NCBI GenBank assembly: GCA_040756415.1 | Contig: JBFLYZ010000008.1 | Location: forward strand, 13,793 to 77,792 | Length of the DNA: 64,000 nt | Reading direction: 5' to 3' | Source: Bacteroidota bacterium | GTDB lineage: Bacteria > Bacteroidota > Bacteroidia > JADZBD01 | Shown: positions 31,282 through 64,000 of the stretch, in pieces | Layout: each line of letters begins with the position of its first letter | Numbering within the stretch: position 1 is the stretch's first letter | Notes under the pieces: generated by a model | What the model saw: only the letters and a program-made list of their open reading frames with translations | Told to the model about the DNA's origin: nothing | The model's database searches: none | Position numbers and translations under genes: made by a program

Positions 31282-32601
31282 TCAGCGTTTCGTTAGCCTG
31301 TCGAGGCTGCGCTGTATGTATTTCTCCGTGGGCAGCAGGGATTGCTGTATCCGCCTGGCGTAATGTATGCTGTCGGTAATGGCCTCGTTCTTGGCCTCTA
31401 TGATCTGCTTTTGCAGGAGGATCTCCGCATTGGCCCTCTTCTTCTGCTGTAATCCGCGGTAAATGAAAAAGGCCAGCGCCAGCATGGATAAGGCTACAAA
31501 ACTGACGGAGTAGATGACCGCTTGCTGGCGCCTGCCGCTCAGCTCCTCGATTTCCAGGTTCTTTTTCAGCAGCTCGTTCTCCTTATCCTTCTTTTCCGTG
31601 TCGAAGCGGGTCTGCATCATGGCAATGTTCTCGTTGGCGTGCAGATCGTACAGGGTGTCTTTCAGGTCGAGGGCCAGTTTGCCATACCTGCTCGCCTTTT
31701 CGTAGTCCTTAAGTCCGCGGTAACCGTTGAACAGGTAGCTGTAGCACGACAGTATCTGATCCTTATCGCCAATGTTTTGAGCGATCTCCAGCGAGCGAAG
31801 GGCGTTCTTTACCGTTTCATGGTAATTGCCCAGGATATCAAATGTGTTGGCGATATTACCCAAACACAGGGCCATGCCGGAGCTGTCAGCAAGCTCTACA
31901 GCCACCGCCAGCGCTTCCCGGTAATGGGCCAGGGCCTTGTCAAACTGCTTCAGCTCAAAATAAGCGCTGCCTACATTATTGATCATATTCACCAGGTGCG
32001 GTTTCTCTCCCGTTTGCCGGTACAGCGCAAGGGCCGACTGGTAATGTTCCAGCGCTTTCTCATAATCGCCTTCACCGTAATACACTCCCGCCAGGTTGTT
32101 CAGGTCTGCCGAGAGCATGTGCTGGCTGCCCAGCTTCTCCGACATGGCCATGGATTGCAGGTAGTACTTTTTAGCCAGGGGATAATTTCTCAGCTCCCTG
32201 TAAATCATGCCAAGACGGGCGCAAACCGAGCTGATGCGTTTAGGATCGCCCACCTTTTCATGAAAGGAGTAGGATTTCAGGTAATTCTCAAGCGCCATAT
32301 CCTTCTGGAACCTTTCCTCGTAATACTTTCCCAGGTGATAATAGGTCCTTCCGGAAAGCAGATCATCAGGTGACTTATCCAGCACCGCCAGGGCTTCCTG
32401 CAAATATTCCAGAAGGGAATCCGGGATCATACCTGTTTTGTCGATCTCCGCGGCCAGGTCGTTCAGGGTTTTGATCCTGTCTTTGCCATTTGCCTGGCTC
32501 AAGGCAGCCGAAAGGGAATCGATGCGGGGGCTGTTTTGGGCAAAGCAGGTCAGGGAGAATGCCGAGAAGGCGAGAATAAGCAGGTGTGTGAAGGGCTTCA
32601 T
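31282..32601 (-). CDS. TPR-repeat protein with signal peptide, single TM helix and short tail. This is a truncated paralog of the TPR/SpoIIE phosphatase at 47698..49851 and lacks the PP2C domain.
   Basis: Signal peptide and about 8 TPR repeats. TM AVIYSVSFVALSMLALAFFIY. The tail …ITDSIHYARRIQQSLLP… aligns with …ITDSIRYAKRIQDAILP… of the full-length paralog, but the ORF stops 20 aa later, 115 nt before the neighbouring gene. Confidence 0.7.
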   Translation of the reverse strand: MKPFTHLLILAFSAFSLTCFAQNSPRIDSLSAALSQANGKDRIKTLNDLAAEIDKTGMIPDSLLEYLQEALAVLDKSPDDLLSGRTYYHLGKYYEERFQKDMALENYLKSYSFHEKVGDPKRISSVCARLGMIYRELRNYPLAKKYYLQSMAMSEKLGSQHMLSADLNNLAGVYYGEGDYEKALEHYQSALALYRQTGEKPHLVNMINNVGSAYFELKQFDKALAHYREALAVAVELADSSGMALCLGNIANTFDILGNYHETVKNALRSLEIAQNIGDKDQILSCYSYLFNGYRGLKDYEKASRYGKLALDLKDTLYDLHANENIAMMQTRFDTEKKDKENELLKKNLEIEELSGRRQQAVIYSVSFVALSMLALAFFIYRGLQQKKRANAEILLQKQIIEAKNEAITDSIHYARRIQQSLLPTEKYIQRSLDRLTKR

Positions 32602-32709: not shown

Positions 32710-33822
32710 CTATTGCTGCAGCAGATCCATCCCGCAAACCTTGCATTTGCCCGGGCCATCGCTGCCTCCCCCGGGGCATTTCATGGGGCATTGCCAGGCT
32801 TCTCCCGGTACCGGATCGCAATCCGGGTTCTTTTTGCTGAAGAAGCGGTAGGAAAGACCAAAAACGTATTGAGTCCTGGTGGCTATCTGCGCGCCATTTA
32901 CATATTCATAGACGGGGACCTCGGTCAGCGCGAAAATGGTCAATGCGTTACGGCTGAAGCTGAGCTGGGGCGAAAAGCTGATCCTCTTGCTGCCGGTGGA
33001 GGCGGTATCCACATTATAAAAGGCCTGAAGGTCCATGTTCTCGGCCGCCTTCATCTTGCCCGTTTGCTCGGCCCTGAGCTGCAGGGTGAGCCCTAAGCTG
33101 CCAAAGCTCCTGCTGCCGAACAGGCTGAGCGCGCCATAGTCGCCAAATTTCTCCCCTAAAGGATTCCATCCCTTTCGTATGTACATCAGGCTGCTGAACA
33201 GCTTCAGCTTGTGCTTGGGGAAACCCCTCAGAAAGAAAGCGTAGGCGATCAGGTCCTGCGAGCCCGTGGTGGGCTGCACGATGGGCGGAGAAATGGTGTA
33301 GTACTGCTGCCCGCTGTTGGGATCAGTATAGACCAGGGTGGAGTCCTTGTATTTTCCCAGCGGGATCTTGTATCCCAGGCCCAGCGTCAGCTCCACCTGC
33401 CGGGATGAATCGCTGCGGGTAAAGACGTTATAACGCGGGAAAATAATAAGGTCTGCGATACCGGAAGATTCGATCACATCCGAGCGGAGCAACACCGAAT
33501 CGTACAGGCCTACCTGTGTTTTGTTCAGGTAGTAGCCCATCTCGACCGATAAGGTAAAATTCTTCGTAATGCCGTATCCCAGCCTGGAGTAAATATAATT
33601 GCTCTTGAAATGATCGAAGAGCTGCGCGGTATCGCGATCCTGTACCTTAAAACGGTCGCTGCGCAGGTATTGAAGGCTGGAGGCCAGCTCCATCTGCCCG
33701 GCCGGCAGAACGCCTTGCGAAGCCCCTCCGGTGATCGGGCTTCCGCTGCCGCCCGAGCAGCAGCCTTGCCCGCGGACCTGGGCGGCCGCTATCAGCGCAA
33801 GCAGGAAAAAGAAGGCGCGCAT
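32710..33822 (-). CDS. Outer-membrane beta-barrel protein with C-terminal heavy-metal-binding domain
   Basis: Signal peptide MRAFFFLLALIAAAQVRGQ. CC motif near the mature N-terminus. Alternating hydrophobic beta-strands. C-terminal CPMKCPGGGSDGPGKCKVCGMDL resembles the HMBD/YHYH-type motif found at the N-termini of CusB/CzcB proteins. Confidence 0.65.
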   Translation of the reverse strand: MRAFFFLLALIAAAQVRGQGCCSGGSGSPITGGASQGVLPAGQMELASSLQYLRSDRFKVQDRDTAQLFDHFKSNYIYSRLGYGITKNFTLSVEMGYYLNKTQVGLYDSVLLRSDVIESSGIADLIIFPRYNVFTRSDSSRQVELTLGLGYKIPLGKYKDSTLVYTDPNSGQQYYTISPPIVQPTTGSQDLIAYAFFLRGFPKHKLKLFSSLMYIRKGWNPLGEKFGDYGALSLFGSRSFGSLGLTLQLRAEQTGKMKAAENMDLQAFYNVDTASTGSKRISFSPQLSFSRNALTIFALTEVPVYEYVNGAQIATRTQYVFGLSYRFFSKKNPDCDPVPGEAWQCPMKCPGGGSDGPGKCKVCGMDLLQQ

Positions 33823-33829
33823 GATGCGA

Positions 33830-34600
33830 TCAGCGCGATACGGTGAGCTTAACGGTTTCCACCGCTTCGCCTGCGCGCAGCTTTATAAAATAGACACCGG
33901 GGCTGAGCGATGAAAGGTCGAGCGTATGCTCGTACTTGCCGGGCGCCTGCTCACCGATGATGGTATGGCTCACCTTTTCGCCCAGGATATTGATCAGCTC
34001 GAAGCTTACTTCAGACTGCCGGGTTAAGGTATAGCTAAGCGCGGCCACAGCGGCAGTGGCGGGATTCGGAAAAATGCCGGCTCCGGTTACGATCGCATTC
34101 GTTTCGGGGACACCCGTACAAGGGGTCAGGGCATTGTTGATGGCGGTTTGCAAAGCGTTTTGGGTAATGCTGCCGTTCACATTGAAGAATACGGTGTGGC
34201 AGGTTCCCCCTCCCAGCACTACGGTCTTGGGCATGCCGGCCGTTCCATAGTCGGTCATGTCGATGGCCGTGCTGGTGAACTTGGCCGTAGCGTTGATGCC
34301 GTTGGTGCTGGCCCAGCTGTTCAGCGAGGCGCAATTCGTATTACCGTAATCATCCACCAGGTAGAACACCACGTTGGGATTACCCATGCCGTTGACGGTG
34401 TTAGCGGCAGTTAGGGAGGGCGCAATGCAGGCCCCGCAGGGCATGACCCAGGTAATGACCACCACCTTGCCGGCATCCAGCTCGCTGAAGAGGGTATGCG
34501 GGTTGCCCGTACAGTCGTTCACGGTCCAGTTCGTTGCGGTTTGGGCGCTGAAATGGCCCGCAGCGGCAACAGTACACAAAAGGAGCAATATCTTTTTCAT
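33830..34600 (-). CDS. T9SS-secreted thioredoxin-fold (TlpA-like) protein
   Basis: Signal peptide. GKVVVITWVMPCGACI resembles a CxxC thioredoxin active site. C-terminal T9SS CTD (…GIFPNPATAAV…GVYFIKLRAGE…). Confidence 0.6.
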   Translation of the reverse strand: MKKILLLLCTVAAAGHFSAQTATNWTVNDCTGNPHTLFSELDAGKVVVITWVMPCGACIAPSLTAANTVNGMGNPNVVFYLVDDYGNTNCASLNSWASTNGINATAKFTSTAIDMTDYGTAGMPKTVVLGGGTCHTVFFNVNGSITQNALQTAINNALTPCTGVPETNAIVTGAGIFPNPATAAVAALSYTLTRQSEVSFELINILGEKVSHTIIGEQAPGKYEHTLDLSSLSPGVYFIKLRAGEAVETVKLTVSR

Positions 34601-34964: not shown

Positions 34965-35357
34965 ATGCGTATCTTCAATATCGTTTTCGCATTGCTGTTT
35001 GTCATTTTCGCGGCCCTTCAGTACAACGATCCCGATCCCTGGCTGTGGATGCCCGTCTACCTGTATGGCGCCCTGCTCTGCTGGCTGGGTTTTAAAGGAA
35101 AATACTATCCGTTTCTGCTCTGGCCGGGACTGGGCGTATACACCGTTTATGCCGTTTACCTCTTCCTGGGCCGGGATGGTGTATGGGCCTGGCTCACCGA
35201 GCACCAGGCGGAGGATATTGCCGCCACCATGCAGGCCGACAAGCCCTGGATCGAGGCCAGCCGCGAGTTTCTCGGGCTGATGATACTGGACATCGCGCTG
35301 CTCGCCAATGTGGCCTGGTTCGCCAGGATGAATCGGGTGCTCACAACGGAAAAGTGA
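34965..35357 (+). CDS. Small integral membrane protein (4 TM)
   Basis: 130 aa, hydrophobic, Trp-rich (…PDPWLWMPVYLYGALLCWLGF…). Its stop overlaps the next start by 1 nt (TGATG). Confidence 0.5.
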   Translation: MRIFNIVFALLFVIFAALQYNDPDPWLWMPVYLYGALLCWLGFKGKYYPFLLWPGLGVYTVYAVYLFLGRDGVWAWLTEHQAEDIAATMQADKPWIEASREFLGLMILDIALLANVAWFARMNRVLTTEK

Positions 35358-37687
35358 TGCCGGTACGCTTAACAGTCTGTTTTCTTTTCTGCCTGCATCA
35401 CATTGGCCTGGCCCAGGATGTCTACCAGGACGTAAGGGGCGTAGTGCGCGACAAGGCCGGCCTGGCGCTGACGGGCGCGCATGTTTATTTGTCGGATACC
35501 TCGGTAAGTGAAGTTGTCACGGATGAAAAAGGCGGGTTCAGGTTAGCCAACATCAGCCCGGGCTGGTATGTGCTTAATGTGAAGCACGGGGGATATGAGC
35601 CGGTGGCCATTCCCATTGTAGTGGAAGCGGGAAAGGAGCTGGTAATGGAGATCGGTCTCAGCGAAAGCCCTTTCGAGCTGCAGGAGATACAGGTAAGCGG
35701 CCAAAGCCTGCCGCAGATCGGGGCTCACCGTTTTACCGTTGAGGAAACAGAACGTTATGCGGCTACTTTTTATGATCCGGCCAGGTTAGTAAGTTCCCTC
35801 CCGGGCGTCATTGGCGATAACGACCAGGCGAACAATATCGTAATACGCGGTAATTCGCCTAACGGCCTGCTCTGGAGGCTGGAAGGCGCGGATATACTTA
35901 ATCCCAACCACCTGGAGAACGCGGGCACTTTCAGCGACCGCGCCACGCAGAACGGGGGCGGGGTGAACATACTCAGCGCGCAACTGCTCGGCAATTCAGC
36001 CTTCATTAAGGGAGGATACGGTGCCGGATACGGCAACCTGGTCTCAGGGGTCTTTGATATGAAACTGAGAAAAGGGAATAACGAGCGCTTTGAGCTCACC
36101 GGCCAGCTCAGCCTGCTGGGCACAGAGCTCGCCTCAGAGGGCCCGCTCGGTAAAAAGGGCTCTTCCTACCTGGTCAACTACCGTTATTCCACGATCGGCC
36201 TGCTTTCGCTCATGGGCGTGGATTTCGGAAATGAAAAGACCAGCTTCCAGGATGTTTCCTTCCATCTTTCTTTTCCCGGCCGGAGGGGAGAGCTCAGCGT
36301 ATTCGGTTTTGCGGGGCTGAGCGATACCCGCCTCGAGCCGCAGCGCGATCCGGCTTTGTGGGAGCTGGGCCGTGATAAGTATGAAACGGATTTCAGCTCG
36401 GCCACCTCGGTAATGGGACTGCGCTCGCATCTTACCGTCAGCAACCGAATGCTGCTCAAATCCTCGGCCGCTTTCTCATACAAGGAAACCGGCCGCAGGG
36501 CATTTTTCCTGGATACCGCTTTGGTGAGCCGCCTGATGCAGGAAGACGCCAGCCGGCTGCAGAAATTGGCCGTACATAACAGCCTCTCCTTTTTTATCAA
36601 TGCCCGGCATACCCTTACCGCAGGCCACCACTCGGCCCTGCTGTTCTTCGATGTGTATTTTGCTGATGGCGCGGAAAAGAGGCCCCTGCAGGTGGTGGTG
36701 AACGCTGCGGGCGATCAACTGCTGGTGCAACCGTACGTGGAATGGAAGATGGCCCTGGGCCGCAGGATAACATGGGTTGCCGGGCTGCACGGTATGCTGA
36801 CAGAAAATGAGAATAGATGGGAACCCCGCCTGGCGGCTGCTTTAGATCTTGGCCGGCAGCACAGGCTTTCGCTGGCCTTTGACCAGACCAGTCAGGTTCA
36901 GCCACTGCACATCAGCTATGTTACGGTGCCAGGGGCTGATGGAACCGGGACCTACCCGAACCGATCGTTGGGCTTAAGCAAATACACGCACTATTCAGCA
37001 GCCTTCAGCGGTATGCTTTCCCAATACGGCTACCGGATCGAGGCGTATTACCAGCAATTGCGGGGCATACCGGTTTCAACGAATGCCGGCACCACTTTTT
37101 CCGCTCTCAATTCGCTCGAACAGATCATTCATGATTCACTGGTGAACGGGGGCAGTGGCAGAAACTACGGGGTGGAGCTGAGCCTGGAGAAGCCCCTGCC
37201 GGGCGAATATTATTTTCTGTTCAGCAGCGCGCTTTACCGCTCGCTGTACACGGCCGCTGACGGGCTGGAGCGCAGTTCGCGCTATGACGGTAAATACGCG
37301 CTCAGCCTCACCTGCGGCAGAGAGGCCGTTCGCAGCGGAAACCGTTCGTTCGGCATTCACGCCAGGATATTGTATCGCGGAGGATACCTCGAAACACCGA
37401 TCGATGAGGCTTTGTCGGCCCGGAACGGAGAAACGGTATATATGGACGAATGGCCCTTTACCCGGAAACTGGATGATTATTTCAGGGTGGACCTGCGCAT
37501 AAGCAGCAAAAAAGAAAAGCCCTCCTATACCCGTATCGTGGCCATAGATATCCAGAACCTGACGAACAGGAAGAATATTGCGTATCGCTATTACGATACG
37601 GTGACCGGCCGTATAGAAACAAAGTATCAGCTAGGATTGATACCCGTGCTAAGCCTGCGAATCGAATTTTCCGCAGCAAAAAAATGA
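35357..37687 (+). CDS. TonB-dependent receptor-like outer-membrane protein with carboxypeptidase-regulatory-like N-domain
   Basis: ORF 35183..37687. Start taken at MPVRLTVCFLFCLHHIGLAQ (35357). CarbopepD-reg-like domain (VRGVVRDKAGLALTGAHVYL…GGFRL). Plug-like segment. Beta-barrel ending …LRIEFSAAKK. Confidence 0.7.
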   Translation: MPVRLTVCFLFCLHHIGLAQDVYQDVRGVVRDKAGLALTGAHVYLSDTSVSEVVTDEKGGFRLANISPGWYVLNVKHGGYEPVAIPIVVEAGKELVMEIGLSESPFELQEIQVSGQSLPQIGAHRFTVEETERYAATFYDPARLVSSLPGVIGDNDQANNIVIRGNSPNGLLWRLEGADILNPNHLENAGTFSDRATQNGGGVNILSAQLLGNSAFIKGGYGAGYGNLVSGVFDMKLRKGNNERFELTGQLSLLGTELASEGPLGKKGSSYLVNYRYSTIGLLSLMGVDFGNEKTSFQDVSFHLSFPGRRGELSVFGFAGLSDTRLEPQRDPALWELGRDKYETDFSSATSVMGLRSHLTVSNRMLLKSSAAFSYKETGRRAFFLDTALVSRLMQEDASRLQKLAVHNSLSFFINARHTLTAGHHSALLFFDVYFADGAEKRPLQVVVNAAGDQLLVQPYVEWKMALGRRITWVAGLHGMLTENENRWEPRLAAALDLGRQHRLSLAFDQTSQVQPLHISYVTVPGADGTGTYPNRSLGLSKYTHYSAAFSGMLSQYGYRIEAYYQQLRGIPVSTNAGTTFSALNSLEQIIHDSLVNGGSGRNYGVELSLEKPLPGEYYFLFSSALYRSLYTAADGLERSSRYDGKYALSLTCGREAVRSGNRSFGIHARILYRGGYLETPIDEALSARNGETVYMDEWPFTRKLDDYFRVDLRISSKKEKPSYTRIVAIDIQNLTNRKNIAYRYYDTVTGRIETKYQLGLIPVLSLRIEFSAAKK

Positions 37688-47697: not shown

Positions 47698-49851
47698 TCA
47701 GAATCGCGCCCCCATCACGCATACGTCATCGATCTGTTCCAGCCTGCCTTTCCAGCTTTCGAATGTTGCTTCCAGGCTCTGCTTTTGCTCGCGAAGCGGC
47801 AGAGCGGCAATGGAAGCCAGGCTTTCGCGGAGCCGCCTGCTCTTGAACTTTTTACCGTCCTCTCCACCGAATTGATCGGCATAACCGTCAGAAAAGACAT
47901 ATACGCAATCGCCAGGCTTGAGCTGCACCTCGCGGTGCGAGAAGAGCTTCAGCTCTCCTTCCGTGAAATGGCCAACAGGCTGCTTATCGCCTTGTATTTC
48001 CAGCACTTCCCTGCTTTCTTTCCCAACGATCCAGACGGGATTATAAGCTCCGGCAAACTCCAGCAGCAGGGTTTTCCTGTCAATAGCGCACAGGGCGATG
48101 TCCATGCCGTCACGAACTTTCGCGTCAGGGCGCTGTTTCAGTATACGGGAGAGTTTCTTGTTCATGGCATTCAGGATCAGTGCGGGCCGGTCTATGCCCT
48201 GCTCCAGAAGGGCTTCGTTCAGCAGGTTATGGGCCACTATGCTCATGAATGCGCCCGGCACCCCGTGGCCGGTACAATCTACAGCAGCGAAAAAAACCTT
48301 ATTGCCCCATTGCTCCACCCAATACAGGTCACCGCTTACAATGTCTTTTGGCTTATACAACACAAAACAATCGGGCAGCAGGGCGCGTATGCTCTCTTCC
48401 GAAGGCAGGATGGCGTCCTGGATTCGTTTGGCGTAGCGAATGCTGTCAGTGATATCCTTGTTCTTTTCATCTACGATCAGTTTTTGTTTTTCAATGATGG
48501 CCTTCTGGCGTTGCGTAATGCGGAATCGCTTGAAAAGCAGAAAAGAGAAGCCCGACAGCAGGCATAATCCCCCAATGACCGAATAGATGACCAGTTTTTG
48601 TTTTTCTGATTCGGCCCGATGGGCCAGGTCTTTTTTTTCCTGCGCAGCTCTTGCCTCGGCCTCTTTCATTTCGTATTCATGCCTGATCTGCTGCCTGATT
48701 GCCGATTTGCGGCTCTGTTCATTGCTCATGCTGTCGCGCATCAGTATATACAGATCGTACATTTCTAGGGCCTGTTTGTGTTTTCCCCATCCAGTATAGA
48801 TGTTCTTAAGCGTTTCGGCCGCATTCCGTATCCACTCGGGGTTCTTCACCTCGCGCGCCACCTTCAGGCCTTTCAGGCTGTAGCTTTCGCCAAGTGCATA
48901 ACGGCCCAATTTCCCGTAACAACTGCCGATGTTGTTCAGCATAATGGCGATAAAGCTCTTTTCCCTGACCGCCTCGGCCAGCTCATACGCTTTCCTGTAA
49001 TATTCGAGCGCCTTCTCCACCGAATCCTGGAGGCTATACACATTACCCATGTTGTTCCATACCTGCGCGATGCCCCGCTTGTTGCCCGTTTCCTCGTGCA
49101 GCTTCATGCATTGGGTGTAAAGATCGAGCGCATCACTGTATTTTTTTTGCTTTTTATAAATAGTCGCAATGTTGTTCAGCGCGGTAGCCATGTTTCTTTT
49201 GTTCTTCTGTCGTGCGCTGATCTCCAGGTGCTGGCGATAATTCATGAGGGCCTGGTCCAGTTCGCCATTGTTTTCGAGGATGATACCGATGTTGTTGAGC
49301 GTATTGGCGATGCCGGCCGAGTCGTTCAACTGACGCTTTATCTCCAGGCTCTTTTCGTAATGGTTCAGCGCCTCGGTCACGTTTCCCAGCAGCTTATAGG
49401 CGTATCCCATATTGTTAAAGGTGCGGGCCACCTGCTTCAGGTCATTTATGGCCATGCTCAGTTCGAGGCTTTGTTTGTACAAAGGGATGCTGTTCTTGCT
49501 GTCGCCTTTATAGTCAAGCATGGCACCCAGGTTGTTGAGCGCCTGCGCTCTTTCGCGGAAGCAGAATGTTTTCAGCGCGCCTGTAGCCCCGGCAAGGTAC
49601 TTATCCGTGAGCTGCACCACCAGCGAACACAACTGTAATGCGCTGTCGACCTCAGAACTGTAAATTTCCTCGCACAGGTCGTTGTAGGCTTTGATCAGCA
49701 CGGTATCGTGTCCTGCGTCAGCAATGACCCCGGCCAGCGAATCGGCCTTTGTCCCGGCCCATAACCACCAGGAAGAGCAGAGCAGAAGAATCGGGATGAG
49801 TGCAATGGGCCTGTTCACGGCCCAAATATAGTCAGGCCGGCAAATAAACAA
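47698..49851 (-). CDS. TPR-repeat / SpoIIE (PP2C-family) serine phosphatase, RsbU-like architecture
   Basis: N-terminal signal/TM. About 9 TPR repeats. TM. Coiled coil. PP2C/SpoIIE domain (…VSGDLYWVEQ…FFAAVDCTGHGVPGAFMS…). Confidence 0.8.
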   Translation of the reverse strand: MFICRPDYIWAVNRPIALIPILLLCSSWWLWAGTKADSLAGVIADAGHDTVLIKAYNDLCEEIYSSEVDSALQLCSLVVQLTDKYLAGATGALKTFCFRERAQALNNLGAMLDYKGDSKNSIPLYKQSLELSMAINDLKQVARTFNNMGYAYKLLGNVTEALNHYEKSLEIKRQLNDSAGIANTLNNIGIILENNGELDQALMNYRQHLEISARQKNKRNMATALNNIATIYKKQKKYSDALDLYTQCMKLHEETGNKRGIAQVWNNMGNVYSLQDSVEKALEYYRKAYELAEAVREKSFIAIMLNNIGSCYGKLGRYALGESYSLKGLKVAREVKNPEWIRNAAETLKNIYTGWGKHKQALEMYDLYILMRDSMSNEQSRKSAIRQQIRHEYEMKEAEARAAQEKKDLAHRAESEKQKLVIYSVIGGLCLLSGFSFLLFKRFRITQRQKAIIEKQKLIVDEKNKDITDSIRYAKRIQDAILPSEESIRALLPDCFVLYKPKDIVSGDLYWVEQWGNKVFFAAVDCTGHGVPGAFMSIVAHNLLNEALLEQGIDRPALILNAMNKKLSRILKQRPDAKVRDGMDIALCAIDRKTLLLEFAGAYNPVWIVGKESREVLEIQGDKQPVGHFTEGELKLFSHREVQLKPGDCVYVFSDGYADQFGGEDGKKFKSRRLRESLASIAALPLREQKQSLEATFESWKGRLEQIDDVCVMGARF

Positions 49852-60342: not shown

Positions 60343-63300
60343 ATGAAACATCTCTACTCCCTTGCGGCCATTGGATTGTTCGCCTGCAACACTTTGCTTT
60401 TCGGACAGGTCAGCGTCAGCCCCCAAAACTCTTCCGGCTGCGCACCGCATATGGTTAACTTCTTATGCACGGCACCCGGGGCCACCTATTACATCTGGTA
60501 TTTTGATGATGGCCCTCAAACCGGGTTCACCACCAATAACGTGATGCCCCATACGTTTGGCCCGCGCATGGTGCCCTATAACGGATGGGTATCAGCTTAC
60601 GATGCTTCCTACATGTTCCTGGGACAGGCTGCTTTTTTTATTAATGTGAACGGTGCGGAGGATTCGCTGACCACCACTAACTACAATCCCTGCCCTGGCG
60701 ATATGGTGGTTTTTGATATTGGCGGAACAACCAATCCATCGAATATCGACTGGGATTTCGGGGACGGATCGCAGCTTAACAATGTTCCTTATTATGGCGT
60801 ACAGCACATTTATACATCACCGGGCACCTATTATCCCCGTGCCGTGGTGACAACCGGCTGCGGAACCGATACGCTGTGGCAGGTGGTTAACGTAAGCACT
60901 TCAGGGGTATTCCCCCCCTTTGTAAACACCTATATTCCTGTAGACAGCCTTTGCCCTGGCGACCCATTTACCGTCTATCCCCATTATATGTATCCCAATT
61001 ATGTGATCGATTGGGGGGATGGTAATTTTTCCACAGCACAAAACGCCCATGTGTACAATGCCCCGGGCAGTTACCTGGTCAAGGTAACTTACATCAACGG
61101 CTGCGGAAATACGCTTACGCAATCGGGAATAGCCACGGTGGCCAACAACCTGCCCATCAGCACTGTCCCCTTCATCGATATCTATCCCGATTCGGCCTGC
61201 ATCAATAGCAACGTGACCTTTTATCCGTACCCCGAGGCCTACGCCAGCTTCTCGTGGAATTTCGGGCCCAATGATAATGCGCTTACCAAAGTGGCCATTC
61301 GGCAGTTCACCAGTACAGGCGATAAGCCGGTAACGCTAACCGTCACCAATGGATGCGGCTATTCGGCAACAGCATATGATACGGTACGTATCGTGAGCAA
61401 TATTCCCATACCTCCCGGAGGACTGAACGTGTTCCCGCCTACTATTTGCCCGGGCGGTGCGGTGATGACCGAAGGCAATGTAAGCATGGGTGATGACAGG
61501 GACTACCTGTTTAGCTGGGATTACGGTGACGGCAATACCGGCACCGGCCGGCAGACCACGCACAGCTACGCTTCCGCGGGGTCATATACGATCACGCTCA
61601 CCATATCCAATGCCTGCGGCAACGCCCAAACGTATACAGCCCCCGTTACCGTGGCCACTAACGTTCAGCCCGATTCTGCGCAGTTCCTGTTCGGGCCCGT
61701 GCCATTCCAGCAGGCTTCTGTGCCGGGTTGTATTGGCGACAGCATGGTGTTCATCTTTGCTCCCGTCAGCTCTGCGGATTCCGTCATCTGGGATTTCGGT
61801 GATATGAGCAGCGGCATTGCAACGCAGGAGATCACCGTGGAAGGCGGCACCTACCGCATCATCAAGCATATGTATACCTCCAATGGAACGTTCTATCCGC
61901 GGGTTACATATAAGAATACCTGCGGCAATTCGTTCACAGCCTATCCGCCCAACTCGGTCACCATAGGCAGCAATTATTCTATCGAAGAGACCAACATATT
62001 CTTTGATGAGGCTGCCTACCATTGCCAGGGCAAAGATGTGACCTTTTATTCCTACGGAGGCAGCTATTACATCTGGAACTTCGGTGACGGAACGGGCGAT
62101 TTCATCAGCTATAATACGCTCGTGCCCATGAACCATGCCTTTCAGAACGCAGGGCAGTATACGGTCACCTGCAGGGTAACCAACGGGTGCGGCTATTCGG
62201 TTACCGACAGCGTGATGATCACCATTCCGGTCTCTGAGATCAACATCAATACCAACACGGTAAGCGCTTCCTGTGGCGTGAACAACGGCACGGCCATCGC
62301 GATCGGTAACGGGGGAGCGACCCCTTATACCTATCAATGGTCGAACGGTAACAGTACGTTCATGGCCGATAGCCTGGCATCGGGTATTTATGTGGTTACC
62401 ATCACCGATGTGCATGGCTGCTCGAACTTTGCCATCGCTACGGTAAGCGACCAGCAGGCCCCGGCCATCGCGGTAAGTACCGTGATCGATGTATCGTGTT
62501 ATGGAGGTAACAACGGAGCCATTGATATTAATCCCATAGGCAGCAGCGCTCCCTATACTTACCTCTGGTCGAACGGGGCCACCACGCAGGATATCAACCA
62601 ACTGGTAGCCGGCCCTTACGAGGTAGAGGTGACTGATGCCAACGGTTGCAAGTCCACGAAAAGCGTTATGGTGGGCCAGCCGCCCGAAGTGGTGCTGTCT
62701 ACCCTGAGCGGACTGGCCACCTGCGGAAACAGCGATGGCAGCGCTGGTGTTGCTGTTGGCGGTACCACGGGCCCGTATAATTATATCTGGTCGAATGGCG
62801 CAACTACACAAACCATTTATGGCCTGCAGGCGGGCATCTATACCGTAACCGTGGTCGATAACAACGGATGCATCTATTCGCAGAATGTGGCGGTCAATAA
62901 CCAGAATGCGCCCATTATCGTTGTCGACTCCATTACCGGAACGGGCTGCTCCAACAGCCTGGCAAGTGTGTATGTGCGTACGATCAACGGCGCCAACCCG
63001 CTTTCTTATTCCTGGTCGAATGGGGCAACCACCCAGGACCTGCTGAACGTGCCTGTAGGCATGTATACGCTTAAGGTGACCGATGCCAACGGCTGCAAAT
63101 CGTTCAGGCAGGTCACCATCGCCAAGGATGAGCCGGCCGGCACTGCCCTTTGTATAGTTACCGTGGATACGGTGACCGGGTTCAATAAAGTAGTGTGGAA
63201 CGAGGATACAAGCGCTACCGATATTGCCGGGTTCAACATTTACAAGGAAAGCACGCTCAGCGGCTTGTATTACCAGGTGGGATATGTGGATTTCGACAGC

Positions 63301-64000
63301 GCCAGCATATGGGTCGACAGCCTTTCTGATTCGCGTGTGCGTTCGTGGAGGTATAAAGTGGCCGTAGTGGACAATTGCGGCAACGAGTCGGCATGGAGCG
63401 GTGAGCACAAGACCATACACCTGAACGTGAACGTAGGGATCAACAACTCGTACAACCTGATCTGGGACCATTACGAAGGGTTCAGCTTCAGCACCTATGA
63501 GATCTATCGTTACTCCCAGGCCAACGGCTGGCAGTACCTAGGCAACGTTCCCAGCAATATTATGTCGTATACGGACCTCAATCCGCCCGTGAACACCATT
63601 GCCTACATGGTTGACGCGGTGCCTTCGTTCACCTGTAATGATAATGCCCGCTATGCAAGCGGAGCTGGAGTGCTGGCTGCAATCAACACCTCGCATTCCA
63701 ATATCAAGAACCTGGTAGCTACGGGACCTGGCGGGGAGGAAGAAAGCATCGTGGCCACAGATTTCAACCTGTATCCCAATCCTTCTTCCGGCAGTGTCGG
63801 TCTGTCTTATCCCTCAAGCGATGACGGGTATACGATCACGGTCTATAACGCCATAGGCGAGATCATATTCAGCTCGGTGATCGCTCCGGGCGATGCGCGC
63901 ATGGCGATCAACCAGAAGACCATCGACCTGAAGGGCCTGGCCAAAGGCATCTATACCATAGGCATTTCCAATAAGAACGGCAGCGTGTACAAAAAGCTCG
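60343..64000 (+). CDS. Second giant T9SS-secreted protein (PKD domains x~7, SprB repeats x~5, FN3-like, C-terminal module). It is partial and continues beyond the window.
   Basis: Signal peptide MKHLYSLAAIGLFA. Repeated …WDFGDG… PKD motifs. SprB-type repeats (…GIYVVTITDVHGC…, …GPYEVEVTDANGCKS…, …GIYTVTVVDNNGC…, …GMYTLKVTDANGCKS…). C-terminal …AINTSHSNIKNLV…LYPNPSSG… matches the preceding gene. The ORF is open at 64000. Confidence 0.8.
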   Translation, partial: MKHLYSLAAIGLFACNTLLFGQVSVSPQNSSGCAPHMVNFLCTAPGATYYIWYFDDGPQTGFTTNNVMPHTFGPRMVPYNGWVSAYDASYMFLGQAAFFINVNGAEDSLTTTNYNPCPGDMVVFDIGGTTNPSNIDWDFGDGSQLNNVPYYGVQHIYTSPGTYYPRAVVTTGCGTDTLWQVVNVSTSGVFPPFVNTYIPVDSLCPGDPFTVYPHYMYPNYVIDWGDGNFSTAQNAHVYNAPGSYLVKVTYINGCGNTLTQSGIATVANNLPISTVPFIDIYPDSACINSNVTFYPYPEAYASFSWNFGPNDNALTKVAIRQFTSTGDKPVTLTVTNGCGYSATAYDTVRIVSNIPIPPGGLNVFPPTICPGGAVMTEGNVSMGDDRDYLFSWDYGDGNTGTGRQTTHSYASAGSYTITLTISNACGNAQTYTAPVTVATNVQPDSAQFLFGPVPFQQASVPGCIGDSMVFIFAPVSSADSVIWDFGDMSSGIATQEITVEGGTYRIIKHMYTSNGTFYPRVTYKNTCGNSFTAYPPNSVTIGSNYSIEETNIFFDEAAYHCQGKDVTFYSYGGSYYIWNFGDGTGDFISYNTLVPMNHAFQNAGQYTVTCRVTNGCGYSVTDSVMITIPVSEININTNTVSASCGVNNGTAIAIGNGGATPYTYQWSNGNSTFMADSLASGIYVVTITDVHGCSNFAIATVSDQQAPAIAVSTVIDVSCYGGNNGAIDINPIGSSAPYTYLWSNGATTQDINQLVAGPYEVEVTDANGCKSTKSVMVGQPPEVVLSTLSGLATCGNSDGSAGVAVGGTTGPYNYIWSNGATTQTIYGLQAGIYTVTVVDNNGCIYSQNVAVNNQNAPIIVVDSITGTGCSNSLASVYVRTINGANPLSYSWSNGATTQDLLNVPVGMYTLKVTDANGCKSFRQVTIAKDEPAGTALCIVTVDTVTGFNKVVWNEDTSATDIAGFNIYKESTLSGLYYQVGYVDFDSASIWVDSLSDSRVRSWRYKVAVVDNCGNESAWSGEHKTIHLNVNVGINNSYNLIWDHYEGFSFSTYEIYRYSQANGWQYLGNVPSNIMSYTDLNPPVNTIAYMVDAVPSFTCNDNARYASGAGVLAAINTSHSNIKNLVATGPGGEEESIVATDFNLYPNPSSGSVGLSYPSSDDGYTITVYNAIGEIIFSSVIAPGDARMAINQKTIDLKGLAKGIYTIGISNKNGSVYKKL
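62230..63130 (+). repeat. Tandem SprB-type coding repeats (~258 nt each)
   Basis: Repeated Y(T/N)Y.WSNG.(T/S)TQ…Y.V.V.D.NGC protein modules. Confidence 0.65.

What the first reader, a model, noticed from the sequence alone, without database searches (positions are those of the whole stretch)
32710..33822. Outer-membrane beta-barrel fused to a C-terminal Cys-rich heavy-metal-binding-like domain
A secreted, strand-patterned beta-barrel protein ends in CDPVPGEAWQCPMKCPGGGSDGPGKCKVCGMDLLQQ. The CPxxCP…GxCxxCGMDL spacing resembles the small metal-binding domain normally found at the N-termini of CusB/CzcB-type periplasmic adaptors and some P-type ATPases. It also has a Cys-Cys pair right after the signal peptide. 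Fusing that domain to an outer-membrane barrel is unusual and suggests a metal-gated or metal-scavenging outer-membrane channel. The adjacent gene is a T9SS-secreted thioredoxin-fold protein.
Basis: partly seen in the sequence, partly recalled or inferred. Interest (0 to 1): 0.55.

Follow-up and report, generated by a model that had tools for sequence, protein, structure and literature searches.

The report
Cys-armed outer-membrane barrel with copper-binding tail
This gene encodes an outer-membrane barrel with an invariant Cys-Cys tip at one end and a copper/silver-type metal-binding domain at the other, always paired with a secreted thioredoxin-like protein; the pair is an undescribed, widespread Bacteroidota envelope module that most likely handles copper stress.

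Summary

New here:
- The two genes form an obligate pair (about 76 of 80 genomes).
- The HMBD tail is accessory (about 1/3 of family species). Some relatives carry an unrelated HMA domain at the same position.
- 31 of 51 long loci hold heavy-metal genes (CusA/CzcA-type pumps, CusB-like adaptors, CueO-like oxidases, HMA proteins).
- A wider sister family of Q-C-C barrels also pairs with small Cys-motif lipoproteins or T9SS cargo.

Best reading: a copper-stress outer-membrane complex in which the periplasmic tail, the Cys-Cys arm and the partner's CxxC form a thiolate relay. Direction and what is passed are inferred. The family is uncharacterised and known only from uncultured Bacteroidota.

The parts
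32710..33822 (-). Whole gene: 370-aa outer-membrane barrel protein with an N-terminal Cys-Cys arm and a C-terminal HMBD
   Evidence: ORF list. An identical protein is in NCBI as 'heavy metal-binding domain-containing protein' (P0001).
33769..33822 (-). Signal peptide (aa 1-18, MRAFFFLLALIAAAQVRG). Predicted signal peptidase I cleavage before Gln19 (Bacteroidota Q-rule).
   Evidence: Sequence inspection. Q19 is invariant. Q-rule: PMC5837995. The residues before Cys do not consistently fit a lipobox (reasoning on the sequences). Cleavage site not tested.
33697..33768 (-). Mature N-terminal arm QGCCSGGSGSPITGGASQGVLPAG (aa 19-42). The Cys-Cys pair is at 33757-33762. Near-invariant, Gly/Ser-rich, precedes strand 1.
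   Evidence: Translation. Invariant Q19 G20 C21 C22 G24 P29 G32 G37 V38 L39. QxCC in 196/200 sequences. pLDDT <50 in the model, so its position is inferred from COG4313, where the N-terminal ~14 residues lie in the lumen (PMC4493636).
32839..33696 (-). 12-stranded beta-barrel domain (aa 43-328), COG4313/Phenol_MetA_deg-like
32797..32838 (-). Linker (aa 329-342, includes the variable Cys335)
   Evidence: pLDDT <50 at residues 334-337. A linker Cys is present in only 48 of 111 tail-bearing homologues.
32722..32796 (-). HMBD (aa 343-367, WQCPMKCPGGGSDGPGKCKVCGMDL). Expected to be periplasmic.
   Evidence: PF19335 34.1 bits > 23.6. Translation. Aligns to the LpCopA MBD core. M347/C363/M365 correspond to the Ag+/Cu+ ligands M44/C59/M61 (PMC11970713). 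C345, M347, C360, C363, M365 are >=90% conserved. Periplasmic location is inferred from the even strand number.
33830..34600 (-). Partner gene, 7 bp upstream: 256-aa T9SS cargo with a ResA/TlpA-like thioredoxin domain (aa ~20-160; 34121-34543)
34427..34438 (-). Partner active-site motif Cys55-Gly-Ala-Cys58
   Evidence: Translation. C55 and C58 are invariant, as are C30, H35, M53, P54, C90 and M123.
33839..34075 (-). Partner T9SS type-A C-terminal sorting domain (aa 176-254)
   Evidence: PF18962 41.9 bits; TIGR04183 42.6 bits vs cut-off 23. Translation. PDB CTD hits.
31282..32601 (-). Downstream TPR/transmembrane protein. Possible associated gene: relatives neighbour the barrel in 5 other loci.
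   Evidence: Pfam TPR hits. Homologues next to the module in L009, L029, L046, L062, L076. Any link to the module is weak.

Best explanation
The gene encodes the outer-membrane half of a two-gene envelope module of uncultured Bacteroidota that deals with thiophilic-metal stress, most likely Cu(I)/Ag(I).

The protein is a Sec-exported, 12-stranded COG4313-type barrel. After signal-peptide removal it starts with an invariant Gln-Gly-Cys-Cys tip on a 24-residue Gly/Ser-rich arm. By analogy with COG4313 channels, this arm lies in or through the barrel lumen. Behind the last strand, on the periplasmic side, sits an LpCopA-type HMBD that keeps the Met/Cys/Met Cu(I)/Ag(I) site.

The gene is co-transcribed with a T9SS-exported ResA/TlpA-like thioredoxin-fold protein carrying a CxxC motif.

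Proposed mechanism: the barrel docks its surface partner through the Cys-Cys arm. The periplasmic HMBD captures or senses Cu(I). Metal is then handed along a chain of thiolate sites (HMBD, then the Cys-Cys arm, then the partner's CxxC) towards the cell surface. There it can be sequestered or oxidised, for example by the T9SS-secreted multicopper oxidases found in the same islands.

Shown: fold, domains, residue conservation, obligate gene pairing, alternative HMA fusion, enrichment of heavy-metal genes.
Inferred: topology of the arm and tail, contact between arm and partner, identity of the metal, direction of transfer.
For: 2. HMBD above the Pfam threshold. It aligns to the LpCopA MBD core, where M44/C59/M61 bind Ag+/Cu+ by NMR (PMC11970713). 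The equivalents M347/C363/M365 are >=90% conserved.
3. The N-terminal QGCC arm is invariant.
4. The partner is a thioredoxin fold of the ResA/TlpA type with an invariant CxxC. It lies beside the barrel on the same strand in ~76/80 species genomes and.
5. Two unrelated metal-binding domains occupy the same C-terminal position: HMBD here, and HMA (PF00403, up to 41.9 bits) ending in a vicinal Cys-Cys in P0244, P0258, P0259 and P0265. The same HMA-CC domain is a separate secreted protein in 17-18 loci.
6. Neighbourhoods:
   - A metal-type gene lies within 10 kb in 42/80 loci and in 31/51 loci >=15 kb. Density is highest within 2 kb.
   - RND pumps exceed the TIGR00914 CusA/CzcA cut-off in 4/4 tested. 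Adaptors are CusB-like and oxidases CueO-like, some with T9SS tails.
   - AraC regulators with an N-terminal MCCxxC motif sit directly upstream of the pair in ~10 loci.
7. Precedents for thiolate relays and for thioredoxin-like proteins in copper defence: the MerA C-terminal vicinal Cys pair (PMC3466566) and the Scs system, including the TlpA-like ScsD (PMC10907172).
8. A hint of direct arm-partner contact. In the sister family, barrels with a single Cys (Q-C-F) have partners that lack the first Cys of the CPSC/CC doublet (n=2).
Against: - No Met, His or Cys is conserved inside the barrel, so there is no obvious metal path other than the arm.
- AF2 places the arm with pLDDT <50, so its threading is not shown.
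- The HMBD is missing from about two thirds of family species. It has been gained or lost at least 6 times on a rough tree.
- 20 of 51 long loci, and this window itself, have no metal gene nearby.
- Islands with RND pumps already have their own TolC-like duct (14 loci), so a second export route is not obviously needed.
- 24 loci have a TonB-dependent receptor and/or a small HMA protein nearby, which fits uptake as well as export.
- The sister family pairs the same kind of barrel with PKD-like lipoproteins and RCC1 cargo that have no metal signature. The generic job of the barrel may therefore be partner docking.
- A thioredoxin-like protein on the cell surface has no known source of reducing power.
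Confidence: 0.4

Rival explanations
1. Docking/tether model. The barrel does not conduct anything. Its N-terminal Cys-Cys arm reaches the surface through its own lumen and holds the adjacent secreted partner by disulfide bonds, giving a dedicated surface anchor. This would be analogous in logic to PorP/SprF proteins for type-B T9SS cargo. In this subfamily the anchored protein is a thiol-disulfide oxidoreductase used under copper stress. The periplasmic HMBD is only a copper sensor or buffer, as the LpCopA MBD is a sensor rather than a delivery site.
For: - Obligate, often overlapping gene pairing across the whole superfamily, with different partners: Trx-like T9SS cargo, RCC1 T9SS cargo, CTD-like small proteins and PKD-like lipoproteins with surface-export-like signals (45/49 loci).
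- The number of Cys in the barrel tip and in the partner loop change together in 2/2 single-Cys cases.
- The LpCopA MBD acts as a sensor (PMC11970713).
- The HMBD is dispensable in most of the family.
Against: - Type-A T9SS cargo are normally anchored or released without a dedicated barrel (established T9SS knowledge; PMC4674972).
- A mere anchor does not explain why two different metal-binding domains were recruited to the periplasmic end, nor the tight linkage to metal-efflux operons.
- The co-variation rests on n=2.
- The surface location of the lipoprotein partners is inferred only from sequence.
Confidence: 0.3
2. Uptake model. The surface thioredoxin-like protein captures or reduces extracellular copper. 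It passes Cu(I) inward via the Cys-Cys arm to the periplasmic HMBD or HMA domain, which supplies cuproenzymes.
For: - 24 loci have a TonB-dependent receptor and/or a small secreted HMA protein next to the pair, in the order TBDR-HMA-partner-barrel in several.
- Cytochrome c and multicopper oxidase genes, which are copper or redox enzymes, recur nearby.
- In this window the pair stands alone among housekeeping genes, as expected for a constitutive supply system.
Against: - In ~26 loci the pair is embedded in efflux/detoxification operons behind an AraC-type regulator with a metal-binding motif. That fits induction by excess metal.
Confidence: 0.1
3. Redox-relay model. The Cys-Cys arm carries reducing equivalents, not metal, across the outer membrane to keep the surface thioredoxin-like protein reduced. 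This would be an outer-membrane counterpart of DsbD/ScsB. It would repair copper-damaged thiols of surface proteins.
For: - The partner is a ResA/TlpA/CcmG-type reductase fold with CxxC.
- In Salmonella the copper-induced Scs system couples a membrane electron transporter (ScsB) to thioredoxin-like ScsC and TlpA-like ScsD (PMC10907172).
- The Cys-Cys arm and CxxC are the only invariant cysteines of the pair.
- The link to copper islands.
Against: - No precedent exists for electron transfer through an outer-membrane barrel.
- A single Cys pair on a flexible arm would need a periplasmic reductase, and none is conserved in the neighbourhood.
- PKD-like partners in the sister family are not oxidoreductases.
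Confidence: 0.1
4. Ordinary COG4313-type uptake channel for hydrophobic compounds, with the metal-binding tail incidental.
For: - The best structural match is the COG4313 channel Pput2725, proposed to take up hydrophobic molecules (PMC4493636).
- Weak PF13557 hits in relatives.
Against: - No aromatic or lipid catabolic genes recur nearby.
- The invariant Cys-Cys arm, obligate Cys-motif partners, HMBD/HMA fusions and metal islands are all unexplained by this model.
Confidence: 0.04

Closest known systems
COG4313 / Phenol_MetA_deg outer-membrane channels (Pput2725, PDB 4RL8; SphA, TcpY)
   Different: - Only 12% identity, and the window protein itself does not hit PF13557.
- The N-terminal segment is longer (24 residues), Gly/Ser-rich and tipped by an invariant Cys-Cys.
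- It has a C-terminal metal-binding domain and an obligate secreted partner.
- Its context is heavy-metal genes, not aromatic or lipid catabolism.
HMBD of Legionella pneumophila CopA (LpMBD core, PDB 8OVL) and of CusB-like adaptors (Pfam PF19335)
   Same: The sequence motif C-P-M-x...C-x-x-C-G-M aligns. The three sulfur ligands of the Ag+/Cu+ site are conserved. HMBD-bearing CusB-like adaptors are encoded next to the pair in other genomes.
   Different: - Here the domain is C-terminal to an outer-membrane barrel, not N-terminal to a P-type ATPase or membrane-fusion protein.
- It should be periplasmic and tethered to the outer membrane.
- His45-Pro46 of LpCopA is Lys-Cys in this clade (C-P-M-K-C in 103 of 111 tails). 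That gives a four-Cys, zinc-ribbon-like set whose metal preference is untested.
PcoB/CopB outer-membrane copper protein (PDB 7PGE)
   Different: A much weaker structural match than COG4313. There is no PF05275 hit. PcoB has no Cys-Cys arm, no HMBD and no secreted thioredoxin partner.
TlpA/ResA/CcmG and ScsD extracytoplasmic thiol-disulfide oxidoreductases; P. gingivalis HBP35 as a T9SS-exported thioredoxin-like protein
   Different: - The partner family has no sequence-level hit to any solved thioredoxin domain and no Pfam redoxin hit.
- It has two extra invariant Cys (C30, C90).
- It is exported by T9SS rather than anchored in the inner membrane.
- It is genetically locked to a barrel.
Mer thiolate relay (MerP CxxC, MerT Cys pair, MerA C-terminal vicinal Cys-Cys)
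   Same: The logic of passing a thiophilic metal between a CxxC domain and a vicinal Cys pair on a flexible terminus or in a membrane protein (plus textbook knowledge of MerT/MerP).
   Different: Mer works at the inner membrane and cytoplasm and on Hg(II). There is no homology, and no mer genes recur near this module.

Membership tests
HMBD (Pfam PF19335) | Match to the family HMM above the gathering score | tested here: met
   34.1 bits vs 23.6, residues 343-367. 74/83 homologues also match.
HMBD (Pfam PF19335) | Conserved C-x-M ... C-x-x-C-x-M ligand set (LpCopA M44, C59, M61 bind Ag+/Cu+) | tested here: met
   C345, M347, C360, C363 and M365 are present and >=90% conserved.
HMBD (Pfam PF19335) | Actual binding of Cu(I)/Ag(I) or another metal | not testable with these tools
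   Needs a peptide or protein binding assay.
COG4313 / Phenol_MetA_deg (PF13557) | 12-stranded outer-membrane beta-barrel | tested here: met
COG4313 / Phenol_MetA_deg (PF13557) | Match to the family HMM above the gathering score | tested here: not met
   No PF13557 hit for the window protein. Only 4/83 relatives hit, best 8.4e-6. The sister-family member P0309 scores 23.3 vs 22. It is a distant relative, not a member by the curated model.
COG4313 / Phenol_MetA_deg (PF13557) | N-terminal segment folded into the barrel lumen | tested here: inconclusive
   A conserved 24-residue segment exists, but the AF2 pLDDT is <50 for residues 14-34.
PcoB/CopB copper resistance protein B | Sequence membership (PF05275) and close structural match | tested here: not met
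PorP/SprF T9SS-associated outer-membrane proteins (PF11751) | Match to the family HMM; pairing with type-B CTD cargo | tested here: not met
   No PF11751 hit. The partner's CTD is type A (TIGR04183).
T9SS type-A cargo (partner gene) | C-terminal sorting domain TIGR04183/PF18962 above cut-off | tested here: met
   42.6 bits vs 23, and 41.9 bits vs 27. A beta-sandwich at residues 171-254 in the model.
TlpA/ResA/CcmG-type thiol-disulfide oxidoreductases (partner gene) | Thioredoxin fold with CxxC at the start of helix 1 and a cis-Pro loop | tested here: met
TlpA/ResA/CcmG-type thiol-disulfide oxidoreductases (partner gene) | Sequence membership (Pfam Redoxin/AhpC-TSA/Thioredoxin HMMs) | tested here: not met
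   No such hit for the window protein. One homologue carries PF00578. A profile search of PDB hits only the CTD.
TlpA/ResA/CcmG-type thiol-disulfide oxidoreductases (partner gene) | Oxidoreductase activity | not testable with these tools
   Needs an insulin-reduction or redox-potential assay.

The most novel reading that the evidence does not exclude
The Q-C-C barrels are a previously unrecognised class of Bacteroidota outer-membrane proteins. They thread their own N-terminal Cys-Cys arm through the barrel to the cell surface, where it engages the Cys motif of a dedicated, co-translated surface protein (T9SS cargo or surface lipoprotein). In the HMBD/HMA-bearing subfamily this creates a trans-outer-membrane thiolate wire. 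The wire would move Cu(I), or reducing equivalents, between a periplasmic metal-binding domain and a surface thioredoxin-like protein. That would be an outer-membrane counterpart of the MerP-MerT or DsbD/ScsB relays.
Probability: 0.25. Interest if true: 0.85.

Novelty: new variant of a known kind. Interest (0 to 1): 0.66.

Why it matters
How copper crosses or is handled at the outer membrane is poorly understood outside Proteobacteria. In Bacteroidota it is essentially uncharted. These bacteria export many proteins, including multicopper oxidases, by T9SS.

This module gives a concrete, testable candidate: a small barrel with defined cysteines and a defined partner. If the Cys-Cys arm really contacts the surface partner, it would also reveal a new way of coupling periplasm and cell surface through a 12-stranded barrel. 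It would be a new way of holding T9SS cargo or surface lipoproteins as well.

The family is abundant in freshwater, groundwater and soil metagenomes: 880 homologues and 246 species genomes. No cultured representative appeared among the best 80, and no dedicated Pfam or NCBIfam model for the barrel exists.

Tried and rejected
- **Fold search against afdb50:** the library was unavailable.
- **The search for related loci with sister-family alignments A5/A6:** Replaced by a degenerate DNA pattern scan.
- **Sigma-70 promoter/terminator scan around the pair:** counts did not differ from shuffles, and Bacteroidota promoters are not covered.
- **RND TM4 signature to tell Cu/Ag from Zn/Co/Cd pumps:** the motifs found (AIGVVVDDGIVMVEN) fit neither recalled signature cleanly. 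NCBIfam only places the pumps in the joint CusA/CzcA family. Metal identity therefore stays open, with Cu favoured by the CueO-like oxidases.
- **Does a separately encoded small HMA protein substitute for the HMBD tail?** Fisher p=0.27, no signal.
- **Do the window's own TonB-dependent-like receptor (35183-37687) and TMEM220 gene belong to the module?** They have no homologues beside the barrel in 80 loci, so this was rejected.
- **Copper genes in the window:** none found.
- **Lipoprotein reading of the Q-G-C-C site:** rejected. Residues -4 to -2 fit a lipobox inconsistently across homologues, while -3/-1 fit signal peptidase I followed by the Q-rule (sequences; PMC5837995).
- **PDB sequence search with the barrel profile:** only the HMBD part hits.
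- **Literature searches** for PF19335, HMBD plus outer membrane plus Bacteroidetes, and T9SS plus copper found no description of this module.
The position of the HMBD relative to the barrel, and lumen-facing residues, could not be measured.
Full report
**1. Observation**

It begins with a typical signal peptide, MRAFFFLLALIAAAQVRG. It ends in WQCPMKCPGGGSDGPGKCKVCGMDLLQQ.

Pfam HMBD (PF19335) matches residues 343-367 at E=2.6e-8 and 34.1 bits, against a gathering score of 23.6. An AlphaFold2 model built on 83 family members has mean pLDDT 84.6. It shows 12 long strands between residues ~43 and 328.

**2. The family and what defines it**

The protein is not a one-off. 880 homologues were found. 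The identical sequence is already in NCBI as 'MAG: heavy metal-binding domain-containing protein [Bacteroidota bacterium]'.

The most conserved part is not the tail. It is the first 20 residues of the mature protein, QGCCSGGSGSPIAGG(A)SQGVL. Within it Q19, G20, C21, C22, G24, P29, G32, G37, V38 and L39 are invariant. Q-x-C-C is present in 196 of 200 sequences. The exceptions are truncated ORF calls or an A-Q-C-C variant.

The residues before Gln19 fit signal peptidase I, and the exposed Gln fits the Bacteroidota Q-rule (PMC5837995). The mature protein therefore probably starts (pyro)Glu-Gly-Cys-Cys. This cleavage is inferred.

A scan of one genome per GTDB species found 246 genomes with a relative. 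The best 80 are all uncultured Bacteroidota MAGs. Only 27-28 of those 80 barrels carry the HMBD tail. On a rough neighbour-joining tree the tail sits in two or three clades, with at least six gains or losses. The tail is an accessory of the clade that contains the window protein.

**3. The tail**

A profile of the family hits only two PDB sequences, both through the tail. They are the NMR structure of the N-terminal metal-binding domain of Legionella CopA (8ovl) and full-length LpCopA (3rfu, residues 30-64).

The paper describing 8OVL shows that the structured core (residues 35-68) binds Ag+, and by inference Cu+, through M44, C59 and M61. C42, C56 and H45 align with the ligands of zinc-ribbon-like domains. 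The paper argues that the domain acts as a copper sensor relieving autoinhibition, rather than as a delivery site (PMC11970713).

The equivalents here are M347, C363 and M365, with C345 and C360. All are at least 90% conserved. In this clade His45-Pro46 is replaced by Lys-Cys: C-P-M-x-C occurs in 103 of 111 tails. This gives four cysteines, so Zn(II) binding cannot be excluded.

The barrel has an even number of strands. Both termini should therefore face the periplasm. This topology is inferred, not shown.

**4. An independent second fusion**

An exhaustive HMMER search used a profile of tail-less barrels. It found 579 representatives at 50% identity (53 at E<=1e-30).

Five core members of 423-455 aa carry something other than the HMBD after the last strand. 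It is an HMA domain (PF00403, up to 41.9 bits against a cut-off of 24.8) with a CxxC motif and a terminal vicinal Cys-Cys (for example ...CCKYER). The same HMA-CC domain is encoded as a separate small secreted protein near the pair in 17-18 of 80 loci.

Two unrelated metal-binding domains recruited to the same periplasmic position is the strongest single argument that this end of the barrel handles a metal.

**5. The partner and the neighbourhood**

A gene for the thioredoxin-like N-domain lies next to the barrel on the same strand in about 76 of 80 loci. It is usually 5-200 bp upstream. Two of the four exceptions have no upstream sequence. The pairing is also seen in all five contexts and in the HMA-fused member. 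The partner family has invariant C30, H35, M53-P54-C55, C58, C90 and M123.

Unbiased clustering of neighbouring ORFs over 79 loci gave the following:

| Neighbour | Loci |
|---|---|
| Partner | 75 |
| CusB-like adaptors | 18 |
| RND pumps | 17 |
| Small HMA-CC protein | 17 |
| TonB-dependent receptor family with an A-C-C-N-L motif | 16 |
| TolC-like ducts | 14 |
| Multicopper oxidases | 13 |
| AraC regulators with an N-terminal MCCxxC motif | 10 |
| CDF transporters with HMA | 4-5 |

All four RND pumps tested exceed the curated cut-off of the CusA/CzcA family (TIGR00914). The adaptors score best as CusB and the oxidase as CueO, and some oxidases have T9SS tails.

A metal-type gene lies within 10 kb in 42 of 80 loci and in 31 of 51 loci of at least 15 kb. 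Their density falls from 1.55 per 10 kb within 2 kb of the barrel to 0.62 at 8-10 kb. In about ten loci the order is adaptor-adaptor-AraC-partner-barrel on one strand.

The window itself has none of these genes. The pair sits among housekeeping genes such as polA, 2-oxoglutarate dehydrogenase and T9SS cargo. The adjacent TonB-like receptor and TMEM220 gene are not recurrent neighbours.

**6. A wider superfamily with the same logic**

The exhaustive search also revealed a sister family of 300-335 aa barrels scoring 80-125 bits. Their mature N-terminus is Q-C-C-S-[PA]-G-N-P-x-G-G. Some members reach Pfam Phenol_MetA_deg, the COG4313 model, at about its threshold.

Among 88 full-length representatives:
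- N-terminus: 66 start Q(G)CC and 16 start with a single Cys (Q-C-x).
- C-terminus: 3 have an HMBD, 6 have an HMA-CC domain and 79 have no C-terminal domain.

A degenerate DNA pattern for the sister motif retrieved 80 metagenome loci, and 60 motif ORFs were confirmed as barrel homologues. Of 49 with at least 500 bp upstream, 45 have a same-strand ORF ending within -51 to +14 bp of the barrel start.
- Most of these ORFs are 116-140-aa lipoproteins. Their lipobox Cys is followed by K-E-D-D-like residues, which resembles the Bacteroidota surface-export signal as I recall it (not tested). They give weak PKD hits and carry a conserved Cys loop, Y-W-A-C-P-S-C-x-G-x-N-T-x-x-C or G-C-C-G-G.
- A minority are T9SS cargo: RCC1 plus Por_Secre_tail, or small proteins with a C-F-A-G-C motif and CTD-like ends.

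Both single-Cys barrels whose contexts could be fetched (Q-C-F; P0320, P0355) have partners in which the first Cys of that loop is missing: S-P-P-C... and A-T-P-C.... With n=2 this is only a hint. It does point to direct contact, by disulfide or a shared metal, between the barrel's N-terminal tip and the partner's Cys loop.

Both kinds of partner are destined for the cell surface. Such contact would therefore require the arm to pass through the lumen. Twenty-four residues are long enough for that (inference).

**7. Mechanism**

*Best explanation (confidence 0.4).* The pair is an outer-membrane copper-stress complex. The periplasmic HMBD binds Cu(I)/Ag(I). The Cys-Cys arm in or through the lumen and the partner's CxxC complete a chain of thiolate sites. 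Along this chain metal is passed towards the surface for sequestration or oxidation.

The logic has precedents:
- The MerA vicinal Cys pair and the MerP/MerT relay (PMC3466566; textbook knowledge).
- The copper-induced Scs thioredoxin-like proteins, including TlpA-like ScsD (PMC10907172).
- HBP35, which shows that thioredoxin-active proteins can be T9SS cargo (PMC4674972).

*Main rival (0.3).* The barrel conducts nothing. It only tethers its partner through the arm, and the HMBD is a sensor or buffer. The sister-family data favour this as the generic role of the superfamily.

*Further rivals.*
- Inward copper supply (0.1), favoured by the TonB-receptor/HMA neighbours.
- An outer-membrane reducing-equivalent relay (0.1).
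- An ordinary hydrophobic-substrate channel (0.04).

*Evidence against the best model.*
- No Met, His or Cys is conserved inside the barrel.
- AF2 does not place the arm confidently.
- Most of the family lacks the tail.
- RND islands already have their own TolC-like ducts.

**8. Comparison with known families, and novelty**

By fold the barrel is a distant COG4313 relative, but it fails the curated Pfam model. The tail is a bona fide HMBD. The partner is a TlpA/ResA-like fold that fails all sequence models for thioredoxins. The barrel is not a PcoB/CopB or PorP/SprF member.

No dedicated Pfam or NCBIfam model exists for the barrel or for the partner's N-domain. Literature searches found no description of the pair.

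I rate it a new variant of known kinds: an outer-membrane metal-handling protein, and a COG4313-type barrel. There is a 0.25 chance that it represents something more distinct, namely a barrel that presents its own Cys-Cys arm to a surface partner to form a trans-outer-membrane thiolate relay.

**9. Verdict**

The interesting feature is less the HMBD fusion itself than three other things: the invariant Cys-Cys arm, the obligate secreted partner, and the repeated recruitment of metal-binding domains. Interest 0.66.

Noticed in passing
L093-L172 (e.g. L104:1274-1633 + barrel 1626-2585; L136:3675-4022): A sister family of 12-strand barrels has the mature N-terminus Q-C-C-S-[PA]-G-N-P. In 45/49 loci it is preceded by an abutting or overlapping small ORF. 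Most of these are 116-140-aa PKD-like lipoproteins with a surface-export-like K-E-D-D signal and a conserved 'YWACPSCxGxNTxxC' or 'GCCGG' loop. This is an undescribed two-gene unit.
   Followed up: partly
L179:2185-2499 and L180:72-464 (partners of single-Cys barrels P0320, P0355): Barrels whose tip is Q-C-F instead of Q-C-C have partners lacking the first Cys of the CPSC/CC doublet (SPPC..., ATPC...). This is possible Cys-for-Cys co-variation, with n=2 only.
   Followed up: partly
P0243, P0244, P0258, P0259, P0265; L088:6001-7368: These members of the same barrel family carry a C-terminal HMA domain ending in a vicinal Cys-Cys, in place of the HMBD.
   Followed up: yes
L074:5370-5717, L023:8575-8934 and 16 other loci: Small secreted HMA proteins (~110-120 aa) with CxxC and a C-terminal Cys-Cys (..CCKYE/CCKK..). 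They often lie directly after a TonB-dependent receptor that has a conserved 'A-C-C-N-L' motif (e.g. L023:6305-8536, L061:7899-9923). This is a recurring, uncharacterised TBDR-HMA pair.
   Followed up: partly
L004:3689-4264, L005:4531-5055, L006:4635-5204, L060:8635-9201: AraC-family (HTH_18) regulators of ~175-190 aa whose N-terminus carries an HMA-like M-C-C-x-x-C motif. They sit between CusB-like adaptor genes and the partner-barrel pair and are candidate metal-sensing regulators.
   Followed up: no
L005:1-1609 (-): A CueO-like multicopper oxidase with a T9SS sorting domain. In these Bacteroidota the copper oxidase appears to be exported to the cell surface rather than kept in the periplasm.
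   Followed up: no
L085:8873-13225 (-), L019:15267-19613 (+): ~1450-aa ORFs in which a complete CusA/CzcA-type RND pump is followed in the same frame by ~400 residues. In L085 these show a weak match to the outer-membrane factor family (TIGR01845). This is a possible pump-duct fusion or a missed stop.
   Followed up: no
window 31282-32601 (-) versus window 47698-49851 (-): The TPR/transmembrane protein just downstream of the barrel (439 aa) stops right after the 'YARRIQQSLLP' segment. It lacks the SpoIIE phosphatase domain that its 717-aa paralogue in the same window has. The space beyond it is occupied by an Rce1-like gene on the other strand. Relatives of this TPR protein neighbour the module in 5 other loci.
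   Followed up: partly
window 35183-37687 (+): This TonB-dependent-receptor-like ORF has a CarboxypepD_reg domain but only sub-threshold Plug and barrel matches. Its listed start overlaps the TMEM220-family gene (34965-35357), so the true start is probably the Met near residue 59 (MPVRLTVCF...).
   Followed up: no
window 61582-63471 (-): A 629-aa ORF with no Pfam match at E<=1e-5.
   Followed up: no
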